64,000 nt of DNA, taken from the IMG/VR virus record IMGVR_UViG_3300037247_001116, positions 1 through 64,000 of that record, one strand, 5' to 3'. Both the position numbers and the translations under genes were made by a program. How positions within the stretch are numbered: position 1 is the stretch's first letter; every line of letters starts with the position of its first letter. Source of the DNA: a virus. Under the pieces are notes generated by a model. That model saw only the letters and a list, made by a program, of their open reading frames with translations, ran no database searches and was not told the origin of the DNA. This document shows positions 2,878 to 62,230 of the stretch, one piece after another.

Positions 2878-3924
2878 TTAGTCTTTATCCTCCCTGAAGC
2901 GAATCATTTCATAATCTGTTTCACATACGGGGTGTCTTGGAACATCTTTAGAACCTACCAACATTCCCTTATACTCGATCATTTTGCCTATATATGTGCT
3001 TCTAGTAGCCCATACATCCTCTTTTTCTTCATCAGTCATAGCTAGAGTCACTTTTAGCCTATACGGAGCGCCACAGTCACGACAAGTGTTTTCTTGTTTA
3101 ATAATCACCCCTGTTTGACCATCAGCAAGGCATTTATCACATAAAGCCTTGTATTCAACCTCAAATCCTGCCGCTTTTTCAATAAGAACGCGATCACCCA
3201 ATTTTTTGCTGGTAACGCTCCTCCCTAATTCATTAATCTTCTTTTCGGCATTAGGATCAACTTCTGTGGCTTGAACCACTCCTAAAATCTCAGCATCAAA
3301 AGTCACAAAAGGTTTCACTTTATAAATAAGCCCCTCTTTAATAGTGCCTCTACCACATTTATATCTCCCTTTTGGGTCTTTTAAAATAAGACCTTCATAA
3401 TCATTTTTTAATGCTTCTTCAAAATATTCTTCGACCTCTTCTTTAGAATTCACAGTGATTTGATTTACAGGAGATATTAAATTTGGATGTAGCTTTTGTA
3501 CCCTTTTTATTAAATCATTTCTAGCACTAAAATAGCAATCCATCAACATGCCTTCATCCACATAATCAAAACAATAAAACTTTAAGTCTTCTGGAATAGT
3601 TAATACTTCTCCATGTTTTTTAATTGTTTTTGGATCTTCAAAATCCTTCGTCATAACGAAACCTGTGATTTCTTGGAAAGTCAAATCGGGAGAATATATT
3701 TCTCCATCTAAAATAATATCATGTTCTCTTGAATAATCAACAAGAGGTTGCATTTTTTCTCTTAATTGTTTATTCTGTATTGGTTTTAAAGACCTTGAAA
3801 GCATTTCCCCTTTGATAAATAGACAGCGTATACCATCTAATTTATAAGAAGCAAGCAATGGATATTTTATTTCATCTAAATTTACTTTCTGATTTGGCGC
3901 AAGCATCGGTTTAAAAGTTTTCAT
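2878..3924 (-). CDS. ATP-dependent DNA ligase
   Basis: Motif I KLDGIR, motif III LDGEIY, FYCFD, motif IV EGLILK, motif V YKVKP. Confidence 0.92.
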   Translation of the reverse strand: MKTFKPMLAPNQKVNLDEIKYPLLASYKLDGIRCLFIKGEMLSRSLKPIQNKQLREKMQPLVDYSREHDIILDGEIYSPDLTFQEITGFVMTKDFEDPKTIKKHGEVLTIPEDLKFYCFDYVDEGMLMDCYFSARNDLIKRVQKLHPNLISPVNQITVNSKEEVEEYFEEALKNDYEGLILKDPKGRYKCGRGTIKEGLIYKVKPFVTFDAEILGVVQATEVDPNAEKKINELGRSVTSKKLGDRVLIEKAAGFEVEYKALCDKCLADGQTGVIIKQENTCRDCGAPYRLKVTLAMTDEEKEDVWATRSTYIGKMIEYKGMLVGSKDVPRHPVCETDYEMIRFREDKD

Positions 3925-5789
3925 TTTCTTCCCTCGATTATTTTTGTGTCGTTTTCATAATGTGTTGGTAATGTCATAATCTGCCTACCAGTTTTTGAAT
4001 CTCTTATTTTTGATGTTAGAAAATATGTATTTTCACAGTCAACCCCATTATTCCCCCACAAATATTTACATACTAAAGAACCAAAACTTGCTACTTGGTC
4101 TGGTGCAAAGAATTTATTGTCTGTAGTTCTAATTTGGGTCATAACAATTAAAAACCCTTTATGAATTCTTAGTTGTTGTGCAAAATGGTCATATGTATTT
4201 TCTGTTTGTGTAAAATCTCCATCTTTCGGCTTCAACCAATCAATTACAGTTATTGCATTATCAACCAGTTCTACTTCTGTTGGATGTTTTACATTATGTT
4301 TTGGTACTAAATAAGCCTCATCGGGTATTTTTAAATGATGACAAATACGAGCTATACCACCATCGGCTTCTGTGTCAATTAAATGAGTCACACGTTTTTG
4401 CGCCCACAGTTGTTTAATAAAATTTCCTGTGATATGACTCTTGCCTCTTCCTGTTGGAGAGCCAATAATCAGTAACCCGCCTTGATTAAACCTTGCATAA
4501 TCATGAAAATATGGCATACGGAAATCTATCGGAACACCCATTTTGGCTTTATCAGCAACCCATTCGGCTTTCGTTAAGACCTGATATTTTCTCCCTCTTA
4601 ATGCCATTACTTTGTTATCATCTTCTAAATGTTTTAAAACATCTTCAATATCTTTTGTTTCTCTTTTCAATGACATAGCGATTTGATAGGCTGTACCTTC
4701 TTTGATAATTTCTAATCGTTTTAGTACATCAGAAGCCAATTCTTGTTTGTCATATGTTCGGTACTTTTTGAGTTGTCTTAAAATACCACTCATATCCTTT
4801 TTTGCCATTGGATTTTCAAGCATAGCATTAAAGTGGTATAAAGCCCAGGAAACTTGATCATCCGTACATTTCTTTCTAAGAATACCGCCATAGGTAATAA
4901 AAGTGTCGTTACAAACCCCGTCAAGACCTTTAATTCCCTCTGTAAAACTATTATTGTCAATTGATTCCTGAATTGTATCATCGACCGATTTCGTGTCATC
5001 CCCAATCAAATCTAAAAAGAATTTCTTCAATTCTTCAGGCATCTTCTTAATAGGTTTATTATTCCATTTTCTAATTTCTCCTTCTACCGACGTTGGTGCA
5101 ATTACAGTATAAGCATGGTTGCCTCTTAATTCCATATCATAAGGGGTCTTTTTGTTATGTCTGAAATTTTTATGAGTAATAATATCAAAATCTTTATCGT
5201 ATTTAAAAATCCAATGACGACCTCTTTTTGTTTCTTGAATTAAGGTATCTTCTCCTAATTTATCTTTCATTTTTTCATACGTGACATCACTATCAATATC
5301 AATTGCTATTACGCCACTGACTTCTCCTAATCGAATTGCTAGTCCATAGCCCCGATCCAGCCACTCTTTCCAAATTTTAGGATCTTTATGTTCTTTTTCT
5401 TCCCACATGAATCCACTAACAGGTCTTTTATCACCAGTGCCTGTTGGAAATAAGCAAAAACCCTGTTTGACATACATTTTAAAAATATCATCTATGTCAT
5501 CTTTAATTTCAATTTTATACTTGTGGGATAAATATGATGCAACGTCTTCATCAGAAAACTTGGGGTTTTTTAATGTTTTGACCAAATCAAAAATATCCCC
5601 TTTTTTGAAGGAGCATTTAGGATCATTACAATAAAATTTTGTGACGTTGTTTGGGTAAAGCTGTGCTTGTTCTTCCTTACATACAGGACAGGAGAATGTT
5701 TGTTTATCCCCTTTGATCTCAATACCTAATATCTCCTGCAAATACTGAATCAAATATTGATTGTACTGGTTTTTAATATACGCGTTCAT
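3921..5789 (-). CDS. Zn-finger + bifunctional primase-polymerase (Prim-Pol) + RecA-fold helicase fusion
   Basis: N-terminal CPVC..CNDPKC; Prim-Pol motifs IAIDID, TKRGRHWIF, ELRG..YTVIAPT; C-terminal Walker A GSPTGRGKS and VIDW. Confidence 0.8.
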   Translation of the reverse strand: MNAYIKNQYNQYLIQYLQEILGIEIKGDKQTFSCPVCKEEQAQLYPNNVTKFYCNDPKCSFKKGDIFDLVKTLKNPKFSDEDVASYLSHKYKIEIKDDIDDIFKMYVKQGFCLFPTGTGDKRPVSGFMWEEKEHKDPKIWKEWLDRGYGLAIRLGEVSGVIAIDIDSDVTYEKMKDKLGEDTLIQETKRGRHWIFKYDKDFDIITHKNFRHNKKTPYDMELRGNHAYTVIAPTSVEGEIRKWNNKPIKKMPEELKKFFLDLIGDDTKSVDDTIQESIDNNSFTEGIKGLDGVCNDTFITYGGILRKKCTDDQVSWALYHFNAMLENPMAKKDMSGILRQLKKYRTYDKQELASDVLKRLEIIKEGTAYQIAMSLKRETKDIEDVLKHLEDDNKVMALRGRKYQVLTKAEWVADKAKMGVPIDFRMPYFHDYARFNQGGLLIIGSPTGRGKSHITGNFIKQLWAQKRVTHLIDTEADGGIARICHHLKIPDEAYLVPKHNVKHPTEVELVDNAITVIDWLKPKDGDFTQTENTYDHFAQQLRIHKGFLIVMTQIRTTDNKFFAPDQVASFGSLVCKYLWGNNGVDCENTYFLTSKIRDSKTGRQIMTLPTHYENDTKIIEGRK

Positions 5790-28003: not shown

Positions 28004-28380
28004 CGACTATTTTGGACTTTTATACAATGATCATCTTCCCTCTTATTTAAAGCTCTTTCTCTCATTCTTCTCTATATATGGATTACGGATAAAAGGGGTA
28101 TAATTAGGTTTTTATTAGGAATAATTACGGATCTACAAGATTTTAGGTATTTCTACAAAAAATTAACAAAAACTATACGTTTTTTGTTAAAAATAGGTCT
28201 GATCTACAATTATTGGAAGGAAGGGCTAAAGTGATCATTAATACATCATTTTTGATTAATTACCGAAACGAAATGGGGATAAAACATCATAGTTGATAGT
28301 TTATAGTAAACTAACAATAGAACACTTGTCCTATTTTATAGAACGGCATCTAAGCCGCCAAACGGCGCAAAGAAGGCGCA

Positions 28381-28443
28381 GGGCGGCGCAGGGCGGCGCA
28401 GGGCGGCGCAGGGCGGCGCTGGGCGGCGCAGGGCGGCGCTGGG
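28381..28443 (+). repeat. GC-rich tandem repeat (GGGCGGCGCW)x6
   Basis: Six 10-bp units plus a partial unit on each side, in otherwise very AT-rich DNA. Confidence 0.95.
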
Positions 28444-29278: not shown

Positions 29279-30511
29279 ATGAGAATTTATGAAACCACAA
29301 TCAGAAACAGTCCTATTTTATCTTGGTGTATGCATCCAGAAGAGGGCGCATTAGATCAGGCGAGAAATTTAGCATCTTTGCCTTTTATTTATCGTCATGT
29401 AGCTCTTATGCCAGACACACATCAAGGTTATGGAATGCCAATAGGAGGGGTTGTCGCGACACAGGGCGTTATTATCCCAAATGCCGTCGGCGTGGATATT
29501 GGCTGTGGCATGTGCGCTGTTAAATCGAGTTTAACCGATGTTACCACAGAACAATTGAAAAAGATTTTAGGCGGTTCTGAAGAAAACCAAGGTGGGATTA
29601 GAGGAAATATCCCTGTGGGTCGTAACCGTCACAAAAAAGATCAAGACGAATTATTAATGCCTGATAATAATAATATGGTAGATTGGTGTGAGACACACTA
29701 TTGGGATGAAAAATATAATTCTGTTGTACAAAAAGAATACAATTCTGCATTAAAACAACTCGGCACTCTTGGAGGCGGAAATCATTTTATCGAAATCCAA
29801 AAAGGAGATGATGGGTTTGTTTGGATTATGATTCATTCAGGAAGTAGAAATTTAGGTTATACAGTTGCGAAACATTATAATAAGGTAGCACAAGATTTAT
29901 GTAAACTGTGGTATTCGGATATTCCTGAATATAAAGGAGAAGATGGATTAGCCTTTTTACCTATCGGAACTGAAGAAGCCAGTAATTATATTAGAGAGAT
30001 GAATTATTGTATAGAGTTCGCTCATGCTAATAGACTTCATATGTTAGACAATGTGATACGTGCGTTTTTCAATGCTGGAATAGATTGTATTTTTGATAAA
30101 GAAATTAACATAGCCCATAACTATGCACAATTAGAAAATCATTTTGGTAAGAATGTTTGGATTCATAGAAAAGGAGCCACATCAGCCAAAGAAGGGGAAT
30201 TAGGTATTATCCCAGGATCTCAAGGAACATCATCTTATATTGTGAAAGGAAAAGGAAATAGAGATTCTTTTAATTCCTGTTCTCATGGTGCAGGAAGAAA
30301 AATGAGCCGTAAGAAAGCGCGTAATGAATTAAGTTTAGAAGATGAACAAAAAATGTTAAACGATCAAGGAATTCTTCATGCTTTAAGGGGCAAAGGCGGA
30401 TTAGATGAAGCGCCAGGAGCTTATAAGGACGTTAAAATTGTAATGGAAGAACAAAAAGATCTTGTTGAAATAGTGGTCAAATTAACCCCATTAGCTGTTG
30501 TGAAAGGATAA
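29279..30511 (+). CDS. rtcB: RtcB RNA 3'-phosphate/5'-OH ligase
   Basis: MPDTHQGYGMPIG, VGVDIGCGM, GTLGGGNHFIE, HSGSR, HNYA, HRKGAT, PGSQG, SHGAGR, DEAPGAYK. Confidence 0.97.
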   Translation: MRIYETTIRNSPILSWCMHPEEGALDQARNLASLPFIYRHVALMPDTHQGYGMPIGGVVATQGVIIPNAVGVDIGCGMCAVKSSLTDVTTEQLKKILGGSEENQGGIRGNIPVGRNRHKKDQDELLMPDNNNMVDWCETHYWDEKYNSVVQKEYNSALKQLGTLGGGNHFIEIQKGDDGFVWIMIHSGSRNLGYTVAKHYNKVAQDLCKLWYSDIPEYKGEDGLAFLPIGTEEASNYIREMNYCIEFAHANRLHMLDNVIRAFFNAGIDCIFDKEINIAHNYAQLENHFGKNVWIHRKGATSAKEGELGIIPGSQGTSSYIVKGKGNRDSFNSCSHGAGRKMSRKKARNELSLEDEQKMLNDQGILHALRGKGGLDEAPGAYKDVKIVMEEQKDLVEIVVKLTPLAVVKG

Positions 30512-53394: not shown

Positions 53395-53408
53395 ACCTCG
53401 TTTAGTAA

Positions 53409-53441
53409 AGAGAAGGGGAGAACAAGATTCTCCTCTTCTCT
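53409..53441 (+). terminator. Stem-loop after the capsid gene (weak U tract)
   Basis: AGAGAAGGGGAGAA-caaga-TTCTCCTCTTCTCT. Confidence 0.6.
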
Positions 53442-53468
53442 CCGATTAATATTTAACAGGAAATAAAA

Positions 53469-57400: not shown

Positions 57401-57632
57401 TGGATTATTTGTATACAAATATTTCAAATCCTAATTTACAAAATATAGAATCGGCAATAATAAATTCTGATATGTTTGATAAAACTATAGAATTTAGTCG
57501 ATGGGATGAAGATCCTGAAGAATTAACTGTAGGTATTTTAAATTTAATATTTACCAATATATTATCTGATGATGACAAAAGTAAACTTGACATCATTGTG
57601 AATGATAATACATAAATAGGGCATAGCCGATT

Positions 57633-60454: not shown

Positions 60455-61687
60455 ATGGCAGATGAAATTTTACATGGGAGAGCAATTAGTCCTTGGATCA
60501 TCCCAAACAAGGGTGGAAGTCCTGACGACTTTCATGGATTGACAAATGTTGGAGCAGACCCAAGTGTTGCTTCAGAAAAAGTTTATGTTATTGGAAAAAC
60601 GGCGGCATGTGGTACAGATAAAGAAACACCAGTGGTAACGGTTCCGTTACCGATGTTAGAAAGAGGAGAAATTGATTCGTATCTTACGCTTGCAAATTTA
60701 GATGCCGAACCTGCTGGTGGTTTTGACCTGCTTGATTTCAGTTCCTCTTTGGTTGATGTAGTTTATTATATTAGAGATGCAAATGCTGGTAATGTTTTAG
60801 CGTCCATGTGGATGCCGAAATGTGCATTAAACAGTTTAGCGATCAATTTCGACGACCCCAAGGGTAGGATTACAAGGGATTTAGAAGTTGGAAGCGACGA
60901 TAGACGAGTTTTCTTAGGTGGAAATAAATATCTTATCCATCTTGAAGACACTGCGCCATCTGGAACTTCTGGTTCTTATGAAATAGATGTTTCTGATCCT
61001 GCACCTGTTGTTGACCCAAATGTTGCATTGTCATATATTCTTCGTATTGATAGAACAAGAGCTGGTGTAACAACCTCTTTGGCTATCACAACGGATTATA
61101 CATATACACATGGAACTTTTACGATTGATGTCCTAGCCGCATTAGCTGATGATGTTTATAATGTTTATTATAGTGCCGCGTCTTTTGGTACGCCAGCAGA
61201 TCCGACAAGTATTGATTCGGATTCGATTTGTTATTTGAAGGCAGAAAACATCACGGTTCTTATTGACGACGGATCTACAGAAGTAGAGATGGACAGGTTA
61301 AGTTCATTATCAATTTCTGTAACGATTAATCGTATTGATGAGAATGTTCTTGGAGATGACGAAACAATTCTTCGTGAAATTACGGACACACCAGTTACAG
61401 TAGCATTTTCTGGTCGTGTTAAAAATTATAACGGAGAAAAGGCATGGATGGCTCAGTTAGGCGACACAGAAGTTATTTCAAGTGTCAAACTTTTTAGCGA
61501 TGCTGTTAAAATCTCTGTTAAAATCCACGACAATGCAGATAAAGACACCTTTTTGATTGGTTATCAGGTTGATAATCTGTCTTACACAGACGGAAGCTTT
61601 TCAACTGATGCTAATGAATTTGGTACGATGGATGTGACCGCCGAAGGCGATAATCTTTTGATTACCACTACTGAAGGCGATCTGTAA
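60455..61687 (+). CDS. Major tail (tube) protein
   Basis: Acidic, beta-rich, 410 aa with tube-like repeats; between terminator and chaperones/TMP. Confidence 0.65.
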   Translation: MADEILHGRAISPWIIPNKGGSPDDFHGLTNVGADPSVASEKVYVIGKTAACGTDKETPVVTVPLPMLERGEIDSYLTLANLDAEPAGGFDLLDFSSSLVDVVYYIRDANAGNVLASMWMPKCALNSLAINFDDPKGRITRDLEVGSDDRRVFLGGNKYLIHLEDTAPSGTSGSYEIDVSDPAPVVDPNVALSYILRIDRTRAGVTTSLAITTDYTYTHGTFTIDVLAALADDVYNVYYSAASFGTPADPTSIDSDSICYLKAENITVLIDDGSTEVEMDRLSSLSISVTINRIDENVLGDDETILREITDTPVTVAFSGRVKNYNGEKAWMAQLGDTEVISSVKLFSDAVKISVKIHDNADKDTFLIGYQVDNLSYTDGSFSTDANEFGTMDVTAEGDNLLITTTEGDL

Positions 61688-61693
61688 TCTACT

Positions 61694-61927
61694 CTGAAAT
61701 CATTGCCGTAAGGCTTGATTGTCAGTTATGTCTAAATCCACATAGGTATAAAGGCTGAGAATTTTATATTTGATATGTGGAGAATGGAATTTGGTGACAC
61801 CTTCTCAGAGGTAAAACACCATTTTCCGATATATGAATGGTAGATAATTGTTGGGTTTCCCGAAGGTTATCTATAAAATGTTTTGAGAAGGAGTGGGATA
61901 CATGAGCGTCCTACCCTTCTCTTACAT
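61694..61927 (+). ncRNA. Candidate structured RNA: five hairpins with a kissing loop
   Basis: Five consecutive stems with G-U pairs, a GNRA loop and complementary loops CTGAGA/TCTCAG. Confidence 0.65.
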
Positions 61928-61943
61928 AAAAAGTGAGGAACGT

Positions 61944-62213
61944 ATGGATAAGAAATTGAAAGAATTTATAAATAAACTCTGTAAAGATCAGAGCCGAACC
62001 CTTGTAGGAAGAATTTGCAAACAAATAGAAATTCTTCAGGATCAACCTAATCTTTCTATTGAAACAAAACAGACTTTAGACCTTTTAAAATCTCTTAACA
62101 AAGAACTCATTTATGAGGAATTTAGGGATTTGAAGAATGCTGTTGTTTTTTATTCAGAAGGTCGCGAATACGAAAAATATCCAATCTACACCCCCACTAA
62201 AGAAACAAAATAG
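61944..62213 (+). CDS. Hypothetical helical protein downstream of the candidate RNA
   Basis: GAGGA RBS and ATG at 61944. Confidence 0.6.
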   Translation: MDKKLKEFINKLCKDQSRTLVGRICKQIEILQDQPNLSIETKQTLDLLKSLNKELIYEEFRDLKNAVVFYSEGREYEKYPIYTPTKETK

Positions 62214-62230
62214 GTGGGGTCTTTTTATTT
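62192..62230 (+). terminator. Rho-independent terminator
   Basis: CCCCAC..GTGGGG stem followed by TCTTTTTATTT. Confidence 0.6.

What the first reader, a model, noticed from the sequence alone, without database searches (positions are those of the whole stretch)
61694..61927. Unannotated five-hairpin RNA with a kissing loop inside the tail operon
Seen in sequence: nearly the whole 250-nt gap after the tail tube stop folds into consecutive stems. H1 (61694-61725) is CTGA-AATCA-GCC[GTAA]GGC-TGATT-TCAG with a GNRA loop. H2 (61737-61781) pairs TCCACATA/TATGTGGA and GGTATAAAG/TTTTATATT around the loop GCTGAGAA. H3 (61786-61827) is GGAA-TGGTG-ACCT[TCTCAG]AGGT-CACCA-TTCC. H4 spans 61841-61873 and H5 spans 61878-61927 (GAGAAGG-GTGGGA/TCCTAC-CCTTCTC). 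The H2 loop CTGAGA is the exact complement of the H3 loop TCTCAG. The many G-T pairs only work as G-U on the plus strand, which points to RNA rather than DNA structure. Established: loop-loop pairing drives assembly of phi29 pRNA and of large phage ncRNAs. Inference: a new phage structured RNA, which could be an oligomerising or virion-associated RNA, an antitermination element for the terminator at 62192, or the RNA partner of the 89-aa ORF that follows.
Basis: partly seen in the sequence, partly recalled or inferred. Interest (0 to 1): 0.88.

Follow-up and report, generated by a model that had tools for sequence, protein, structure and literature searches.

The report
Kissing-loop RNA after phage tail-tube gene
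The gap after this uncultured phage's tail-tube gene encodes a real folded RNA whose core is two hairpins with co-evolving loops (a "kissing" pair); it matches no known RNA family, close relatives gain and lose it quickly, and its function is still unknown.

Summary
Window 61688-61945 folds into the five hairpins described: -84.6 kcal/mol, z -6.1 against shuffles, and stronger on the + strand than the - strand. It matches no Rfam family.

The five hairpins are not one conserved RNA. In about 30 related metagenome loci with the same gene order (tail tube, ~89-aa ORF, terminator), the gap runs from about 15 to about 400 nt. It is a mosaic of interchangeable hairpin modules.

The conserved unit is H2+H3 (61731-61833). 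It occurs in 7 loci, always at this spot.
- 30 of 37 modelled pairs show compensatory changes.
- Four of the six loop-loop pairs covary, and 41 of 42 cells pair. The kissing interaction is therefore supported.
- H4 plus a conserved linker accompanies H2-H3 in 3 loci.
- H1 and H5 are separate modules.

The module is patchy among near-identical tail tubes, so it is accessory. The downstream ORF and terminator are conserved whether or not the module is present. That argues against the antitermination and RNA-partner ideas.

Best reading (inferred, not shown): a cis-acting, compactly folded barrier or insulator in the late mRNA, just 3' of the abundantly needed tail-tube cistron. No expression data could be obtained.

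The scan's only earlier notes on this are first-reader notes on this same stretch. It has not been seen on other DNA.

The parts
60455..61687 (+). Major tail-tube gene (410 aa, duplicated tube domain). This is the upstream cistron.
   Evidence: AF2 model with pLDDT 84. Foldseek top hits are the SH-Ab15497 major tail protein, the P74-26 tail tube and T5 pb6, E 5e-10 to 3e-9. More than 170 metagenome homologues.
61694..61725 (+). H1, an optional hairpin module with a GUAA loop.
   Evidence: Folds as drawn, with bulges. A hairpin of similar architecture is present only in L004 and L010. It is absent from four other loci that carry H2-H3.
61731..61738 (+). Conserved unpaired 5' flank of the module (UCUAAAUC).
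   Evidence: UAAAUC is invariant in the six close members.
61738..61780 (+). H2: 7 + 9 bp stem with a 3' bulge and an 8-nt loop.
   Evidence: 15 of its 16 pairs show changes on both sides in 7 sequences.
61755..61760 (+). 5' strand of the kissing helix (CUGAGA, in the H2 loop).
   Evidence: Covaries with 61803-61808.
61786..61827 (+). H3: 11 + 4 bp stem with an A-rich 3' internal loop and a 6-nt loop.
   Evidence: 13 of its 15 pairs show changes on both sides.
61803..61808 (+). 3' strand of the kissing helix (UCUCAG, the H3 loop).
   Evidence: 41 of 42 cells pair. Four of the six positions show double changes. Only 0.7% of 5040 loop permutations do as well.
61826..61874 (+). Conserved linker (CCGAUAUAYGAWGG) plus H4.
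   Evidence: Present after H3 in the window, L002 and L011. The H4 stems differ in sequence but keep their pairing (read by eye).
61878..61927 (+). H5, a purine-arm/pyrimidine-arm hairpin just upstream of the ribosome-binding site. It is an independent module.
   Evidence: Related hairpins occur in L002, L005, L008 and L027, the last three without H2-H3. Nearly every relative has a stable hairpin at this position. The scan flags it weakly as terminator-like, but it has no U run.
61933..62213 (+). Shine-Dalgarno sequence (GUGAGGA) and the 89-aa ORF (61944-62213).
   Evidence: The ORF is conserved in 24 loci. AF2 gives pLDDT 90 and two long helices. No fold match better than E 0.5.
62191..62230 (+). 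Terminator-like hairpin plus U run, straddling the stop codon of the 89-aa ORF.
   Evidence: A hairpin followed by a U run is conserved at this position in all 22 loci examined, with or without the kissing module.

Best explanation
The gap is transcribed as part of the late tail-operon mRNA and folds into independent hairpin modules. Its core is a ~100-nt module (61731-61833) of two neighbouring hairpins of matched length. Their terminal loops form a 6-bp kissing helix, which gives a compact tertiary fold. I propose that it acts in cis. It sits directly 3' of the tail-tube cistron, whose product is needed in far more copies than those of the genes downstream. There it would serve as a hard-to-unwind barrier that protects the tube message from 3'-to-5' decay, or otherwise insulates it from the downstream cistrons. 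This would set the tube-to-downstream expression ratio. Other hairpin modules would do the same job in relatives, which would explain why the module can be exchanged. Shown: the structure, the strand, the covariation including the kissing helix, the fixed position, and the turnover. Inferred: co-transcription, and the stabilising or insulating function.
For: Structure: z -6.1 for the whole gap. Each of 7 homologous modules folds on its own into the same two hairpins, z -2.6 to -6.35. Across those modules 92.9% of cells pair, against 72.6% in shuffles (0 of 500 reach it) and 40-54% when the partners are slid. 30 of 37 pairs have double changes. Kissing helix: C-G to U-A in L002, G-C to A-U in L003 and L007, and G-C to A-U plus A-U to C-G in L018. 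41 of 42 cells pair. Position: the model finds the module once in the 102.7-kb genome and only at the syntenic spot in relatives. Context: the upstream gene is the tail tube and the gap has no promoter-like site. Nearly every relative keeps at least one very stable hairpin here, even where the sequence is unrelated. In this genome, the gaps that fold far better than shuffles are those after structural-region genes. One is a strong hairpin right after the probable major capsid gene, z -4.2 to -4.3. Turnover among close relatives fits a role that any sufficiently stable fold can fill.
Against: There are no expression, 3'-end or half-life data. The tools for sequencing runs and for further contigs were closed. 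A generic barrier does not need conserved unpaired nucleotides, yet the 5' flank, the H2-H3 linker, the loop flanks and the A-rich internal loop are conserved. That hints at a specific partner or a precise 3D fold. Only 7 members are known, the alignment used for counting was fitted to the model, and some members are close kin. Covariation cannot tell an intramolecular kiss from an intermolecular one. A ROOL kissing loop first read as tertiary proved to be quaternary (10.1101/2024.12.08.627333). The capsid assignment rests on a language-model look-alike only.
Confidence: 0.42

Rival explanations
1. The module is cut out of, or accumulates from, the operon transcript as a stable small RNA that acts through a specific partner. 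One example would be a decoy or sponge for a host nuclease or defence protein, swapped between phages like other accessory cassettes.
For: Unpaired nucleotides and loops are conserved beyond what stability needs. Presence and absence are patchy among near-identical tail tubes, and the site carries alternative complex modules. That pattern resembles accessory or arms-race loci. The phage invests heavily in RNA repair, for example RtcB.
Against: No promoter lies in the gap. No partner gene co-varies with it. There is no evidence of processing. The module is single-copy and seen in one narrow clade only.
Confidence: 0.25
2. A put-like cis antiterminator. The two hairpins would modify the transcribing polymerase so that it reads through the terminator after the 89-aa ORF.
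For: Two adjacent stem-loops lie in the nascent RNA about 360 nt upstream of a conserved terminator-like hairpin.
Against: The terminator is conserved in all 22 loci, yet only 7 carry the module. Sister phages without the module keep the same terminator. The module is not promoter-proximal. From my own knowledge, HK022 put RNAs are not known to use a loop-loop kiss.
Confidence: 0.08
3. A sensor (riboswitch-like, or protein-responsive) that controls translation of the 89-aa ORF. The kissing hairpins would form a binding pocket at their junction.
For: Parallel hairpins locked by a loop-loop kiss resemble purine and lysine riboswitch aptamers (own knowledge). The junction nucleotides are conserved. 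In L003 and L004 the ribosome-binding site follows H3 within about 12 nt.
Against: There is no conserved closing helix and no alternative pairing with the ribosome-binding site that I could find. H4, H5 or other modules intervene in other members. No Rfam aptamer matches. The module is dispensable in sister phages that have the same ORF.
Confidence: 0.08
4. A pRNA-like or nanocage-like RNA that oligomerises through intermolecular H2-H3 kisses and takes part in virion assembly.
For: Covariation is equally compatible with intermolecular pairing.
Against: The RNA is embedded in an mRNA with no promoter of its own. It is absent from phages with nearly identical tail tubes. It matches no pRNA, ROOL or GOLLD model. 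The matched arm lengths of H2 and H3 in all members fit an intramolecular kiss.
Confidence: 0.04
5. No RNA-level function: a chance fold, or DNA-level inverted repeats such as protein-binding sites or recombination scars.
For: The region is AT-rich, and the - strand also folds better than shuffles.
Against: Compensatory changes occur in 30 of 37 pairs, and the slid and shuffled controls fall far below the real structure. There are 13 G.U against 5 A.C. The loops covary even in L018, where the stems have diverged.
Confidence: 0.03

Closest known systems
Intercistronic mRNA-stabilising stem-loops (E. coli malE-malF REP hairpins, Rhodobacter puf operon hairpins; own knowledge)
   Same: A stable structure placed directly 3' of the cistron that must be expressed most. 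The position is conserved while the sequence is replaceable. It works in cis within a polycistronic mRNA.
   Different: Here two hairpins are locked by a covarying 6-bp loop-loop helix and have conserved unpaired nucleotides. Protection has not been shown. It is a single copy, not a dispersed repeat.
phi29 pRNA (Rfam RF00044)
   Same: A phage RNA with two loops that are complementary to each other.
   Different: No model match. It has no promoter of its own, lies inside the tail operon rather than next to the packaging genes, is dispensable in sister phages, and its hairpin arm lengths fit an intramolecular kiss.
HK022 put antiterminator RNA (own knowledge)
   Same: Two adjacent stem-loops in a nascent phage transcript, upstream of a terminator.
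   Different: It is not promoter-proximal. The terminator is conserved whether or not the module is present. No kiss is known in put.
Kissing-loop riboswitch aptamers (purine RF00167, lysine RF00168)
   Same: Side-by-side helices of matched length held together by a loop-loop interaction.
   Different: No model match. There is no conserved closing helix or expression platform. The stems are about 15 bp long, and the kiss is fully Watson-Crick over 6 bp.
ROOL and GOLLD large phage RNAs (10.1101/2024.12.08.627333)
   Same: Phage-borne RNAs of unknown function, with covarying kissing loops.
   Different: Those RNAs are 500-800+ nt, usually lie near tRNA islands and form nanocages. This module is about 100 nt, lies in an mRNA gap, and gives no model match.
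Exoribonuclease-resistant RNAs of flaviviruses (xrRNA; own knowledge)
   Same: The proposed logic is the same: a compact tertiary fold rather than a plain hairpin blocks a processive nuclease.
   Different: The fold is different (a ring-like pseudoknot), the nuclease direction is different (5'-3' Xrn1) and the host is different. This is an analogy only.

Membership tests
phi29-type pRNA | Matches the Rfam covariance model | tested here: not met
   No hit in the gap at E up to 10. No gathering-score hit anywhere in the window.
phi29-type pRNA | Separate transcript with its own promoter, next to the packaging genes | tested here: not met
   No promoter-like site in the gap. The RNA lies between the tail-tube gene and an 89-aa ORF.
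phi29-type pRNA | Intermolecular loop-loop pairing that gives multimers | not testable with these tools
   Covariation cannot tell intra- from intermolecular pairing.
put-type processive antiterminator | Two adjacent stem-loops in the nascent RNA | tested here: met
   H2 and H3 are separated by about 5 nt.
put-type processive antiterminator | Occurs together with the terminator it must overcome | tested here: not met
   The terminator is present in all 22 loci, the module in only 7.
Intercistronic stabilising hairpin | Lies directly 3' of a cistron needed in excess over the downstream genes | tested here: met
   The upstream gene is the major tail tube. The module starts 10-45 nt after its stop codon in all members.
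Intercistronic stabilising hairpin | Stability beyond chance, kept at this position in relatives regardless of sequence | tested here: met
   z -6.1. Most gaps in relatives hold a hairpin of about -19 to -29 kcal/mol or more. The two shortest gaps (L019, L031) do not.
Intercistronic stabilising hairpin | Upstream mRNA segment ends at, and is protected by, the structure | not testable with these tools
Kissing-loop riboswitch aptamer (purine or lysine type) | Matches an Rfam aptamer model | tested here: not met
Kissing-loop riboswitch aptamer (purine or lysine type) | Closing helix that makes a multi-way junction, plus an expression platform | tested here: not met
   The short outer pairing in the window's fold is not reproduced in L002, L003, L004 or L011. 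What follows H3 differs between members.
Small self-cleaving ribozymes (hammerhead, pistol, twister, hatchet) | Rfam model match or conserved catalytic core | tested here: not met
   No hits. The CUGAGA loop varies and covaries, so it is not a fixed core.
ROOL / GOLLD | Model match, size above 500 nt, neighbourhood of tRNA genes | tested here: not met
   No hits. No tRNA genes in the window. The module is about 100 nt.

The most novel reading that the evidence does not exclude
The tail-tube/89-aa gap of this phage clade is a swap site for compact, tertiary-locked RNA cassettes. Two classes are seen: the kissing-loop module and an unrelated pseudoknotted module. They would act as autonomous functional RNAs, for example nuclease-resistant RNAs or decoys against host RNA-targeting defences, possibly as dimers formed through the kiss. 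That would be a new class of accessory phage RNA.
Probability: 0.2. Interest if true: 0.8.

Novelty: new variant of a known kind. Interest (0 to 1): 0.5.

Why it matters
Few tertiary-structured RNA motifs are known inside phage structural operons. This one has unusually clean support from very few sequences, including a covarying loop-loop helix. It also sits at a site where related phages exchange different complex RNA folds. If the fold is a nuclease barrier, it would be a bacterial-virus counterpart of viral exonuclease-resistant RNAs, and a compact part for tuning operon stoichiometry. If it is a trans-acting or oligomerising RNA, it would add a small member to the phage RNAs of unknown function. 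Either way it is a well-defined ~100-nt target for probing, native gels and loop-swap genetics.

Tried and rejected
- **Rfam:** nothing in the gap, the whole window or 13 related loci.
- **tRNA and tmRNA:** none.
- **Cultured relatives and prophages:**
  - No DNA or protein match in the INPHARED phages.
  - No tail-tube relative in GTDB genomes.
  - Only two relatives in IMG/VR, and both lack the module.
- **Pattern scans for more members:** 46 hits in IMG/VR and 46 in GTDB genomes were all chance. The best model scores were 18-22 bits, and L066 lies inside a long open frame that looks coding.
- **Flanking proteins:** PHROGs and Pfam give nothing. The ESM Atlas gives nothing for the 89-aa ORF.
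- **Readthrough, frameshift or bypass of the tube stop codon:** rejected. An in-frame stop follows after 8 codons, and the gap holds no other + strand ORF of 30 aa or more.
- **Three-way junction closed by an outer helix:** rejected, because the pairing is not conserved.
- **Hammerhead-like reading of the CUGAGA loop:** rejected, because the loop covaries.
- **Anticodon-loop mimicry by the H2 loop:** considered, but left as an unsupported curiosity.
- **Dispersed repeat or MITE:** rejected, because the stretch is single-copy in the genome.

Full report
**Observation.** The 256-nt gap lies between the stop codon of the 410-aa gene (60455-61687) and the start of an 89-aa ORF (61944). It contains the five hairpins at the coordinates given.
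- The + strand RNA folds to -84.6 kcal/mol. Dinucleotide shuffles average -56.9 +/- 4.5, so z is -6.1 and 0 of 200 shuffles are as good. The minimum-energy structure is exactly H1 to H5.
- The - strand folds less well: -64 kcal/mol, z -4.3.
- The H2 loop CUGAGA (61755-61760) and the H3 loop UCUCAG (61803-61808) are exact complements.
- Rfam gives no hit in the gap at E up to 10, and no gathering-score hit in the window.
- There are no tRNA genes and no sigma-70-like promoter in the gap.

**Context.** The window is part of a 102.7-kb IMG/VR virus record, estimated to be 57% complete. It has no cultured relatives.
- The 410-aa protein has no Pfam or PHROG match.
- Its AlphaFold model (pLDDT 84) matches duplicated-domain siphophage tail tubes: the SH-Ab15497 major tail protein, P74-26 and T5 pb6, E 5e-10 to 3e-9.
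- The 89-aa ORF models as two long helices (pLDDT 90) with no meaningful fold match.

**Relatives.** The tube protein has more than 170 metagenome homologues. Forty loci with flanking DNA were fetched.
- The gene order is conserved: tube, ~89-aa ORF, small ORF, ~212-aa ORF.
- The gap ranges from about 15 to about 400 nt and is a mosaic.
- H1-like hairpins occur in the window, L004 and L010.
- H2-H3 occurs in the window, L002, L003, L004, L007, L011 and, diverged, L018.
- H4 with a conserved linker occurs in the window, L002 and L011.
- H5-like hairpins occur in the window, L002, L005, L008 and L027.
- Other loci carry unrelated hairpins.
- All but the two shortest gaps hold at least one very stable hairpin, typically with a purine-rich 5' arm and a pyrimidine-rich 3' arm.
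- The "five-hairpin RNA" is therefore not one evolutionary unit.

**The conserved unit.** A covariance model built from six H2-H3 modules gave these results.
- It scores those six loci at 93-112 bits (they match by construction) and L018 at 29.8 bits (E about 1e-3). All lie at the same syntenic spot.
- It finds the module once in the phage's own genome.
- Each of the seven modules folds on its own into the same two hairpins, z -2.6 to -6.35.
- On the model-fitted alignment, 92.9% of cells form standard pairs, against 72.6% in shuffles (0 of 500 reach it) and 40-54% when the 3' partners are slid by 1-3 columns. 30 of 37 pairs show changes on both sides.
- That alignment leans towards the modelled structure. 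The slid controls and the single-sequence folds argue that the result is not an artefact.
- The stems contain 13 G.U against 5 A.C, as expected for a + strand RNA.

**The kiss.** The loop pairs in the seven members are:

| Locus | H2 loop / H3 loop |
|---|---|
| window, L004 | CUGAGA / UCUCAG |
| L002 | UUGAGA / UCUCAA |
| L003, L007 | CUAAGA / UCUUAG |
| L011 | CUAAGA / UCUCAG (one A.C) |
| L018 | CUGAAC / GUUCAG |

- The stems of L018 have diverged almost completely, yet its loops still match.
- Four of the six positions carry double compensatory changes, and 41 of 42 cells pair. Only 0.7% of all 5040 reassignments of H3 loops to H2 loops do as well.
- The loop-loop pairing is therefore under selection.
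- The 5' arms of H2 (about 16 nt) and H3 (16-18 nt, 21 in L018) stay matched in length. That fits two side-by-side helices closed by an intramolecular kiss.
- Covariation cannot exclude an intermolecular kiss. A ROOL kissing loop that covariation had suggested was tertiary proved to be quaternary (10.1101/2024.12.08.627333).
- Also conserved are the unpaired 5' flank, the H2-H3 linker, the nucleotides flanking the H2 loop, and an A-rich 3' internal loop in H3.

**Distribution.**
- On a tail-tube tree, the module is confined to one fully supported clade of 14 sequences but is patchy within it.
- L004 and L007 carry the module. Their close sister L005 (branch lengths 0.03-0.08) has other hairpins instead. 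Parsimony needs 5 changes, and well-supported branches force at least 2.
- Pattern scans of IMG/VR and of GTDB genomes gave only chance hits.
- The family is so far a narrow, accessory element of one uncultured phage clade.

- A hairpin plus U run straddling the stop codon of the 89-aa ORF is conserved in all 22 loci examined. It does not track the module, which speaks against a dedicated antiterminator.
- The 89-aa ORF is conserved in loci without the module and shows no RNA-binding fold, which speaks against an obligate RNA-protein pair.
- An essential virion or packaging RNA is hard to square with its absence from sister phages.

**Most likely mechanism (inference).** The gap has no promoter-like site, and the module always begins 10-45 nt after the tube stop codon. 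I therefore read it as part of the late mRNA.
- In this genome, the gaps that fold far better than shuffles all follow genes in the structural region: 53395-53468, 57401-57632, 61688-61892 and 67409-67561.
- The first of these is a strong hairpin right after a 325-aa protein. The ESM Atlas places that protein with YonB-type capsid proteins at score 0.98, which is a lead only.
- A stable structure just 3' of the most abundantly needed cistrons is the classical arrangement for protecting an upstream message segment and uncoupling its level from the downstream genes (own knowledge: malE-malF REP, puf operon).
- The kiss would turn two hairpins into one compact block that is hard to unwind.
- Interchangeability with other modules fits a role defined by stability.
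- The conserved unpaired nucleotides do not fit a purely generic barrier. They keep a specific-partner or trans-acting reading alive.

I put about 0.9 on [quoted passage not shown]. I put about 0.4 on the cis barrier/insulator function.

**Limits.**
- Only seven members are known.
- There are no expression data.
- Three routes were closed or unavailable: the look-up of encoding contigs, the look-up of sequencing runs and with it read laying, and whole-record searches of the related metagenome contigs.

Noticed in passing
L007:1891-2003, L010:3792-3908, L027:750-863: A second, unrelated ~115-nt structured module sits in the same tube/89-aa gap in three relatives. It has two hairpin domains and a long-range 6-nt pairing that covaries: UCUCUC/GAGAGA, UGUCUC/GAGACA and UCUCUU/AAGAGA. 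It has no Rfam match. L007 carries both this module and the kissing module.
   Followed up: partly
window 53395-53468: A 14-bp hairpin (about 53409-53441; GAGAAGG... 5' arm, ...CUUCUCU 3' arm) lies right after the 325-aa gene that looks like a YonB-type major capsid protein. It has z -4.3 and the same purine-arm/pyrimidine-arm style as H5.
   Followed up: partly
window 62191-62230 and the equivalent place in 21 related loci: A terminator-like hairpin plus U run straddles the stop codon of the 89-aa ORF. It is conserved across the whole family, with stem sequences that differ between loci. It would end transcripts between the 89-aa ORF and the next small ORF.
   Followed up: partly
window 28375-28443: A GC-rich tandem repeat (10-bp unit GGCGCAGGGC, 6.9 copies, 94% matches) in an otherwise low-GC phage. 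It lies in the strand-switch region just before the rightward genes.
   Followed up: no
gaps of L006, L016, L025, L026, L028, L030, L032, L035, L041: Each distant relative has a single strong hairpin in the gap. Its 5' arm is Shine-Dalgarno-like (GGAG/GAGG runs) and its 3' arm is the matching pyrimidine run, 10-20 nt upstream of the real ribosome-binding site. Whether the pyrimidine arm can alternatively mask that site was not tested.
   Followed up: no
window 29279-30511, 2878-3924, 3921-5789: The phage encodes RtcB (Pfam E 4e-113), an ATP-dependent DNA/RNA ligase-like protein and a primase-polymerase.
   Followed up: partly
window 61944-62213: The 89-aa protein models with high confidence (pLDDT 90) as a two-helix hairpin with a Pro-rich tail. 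It has no Pfam, PHROG, Atlas or PDB-fold relative. By position it may be a tail assembly chaperone, but that is unproven.
   Followed up: partly
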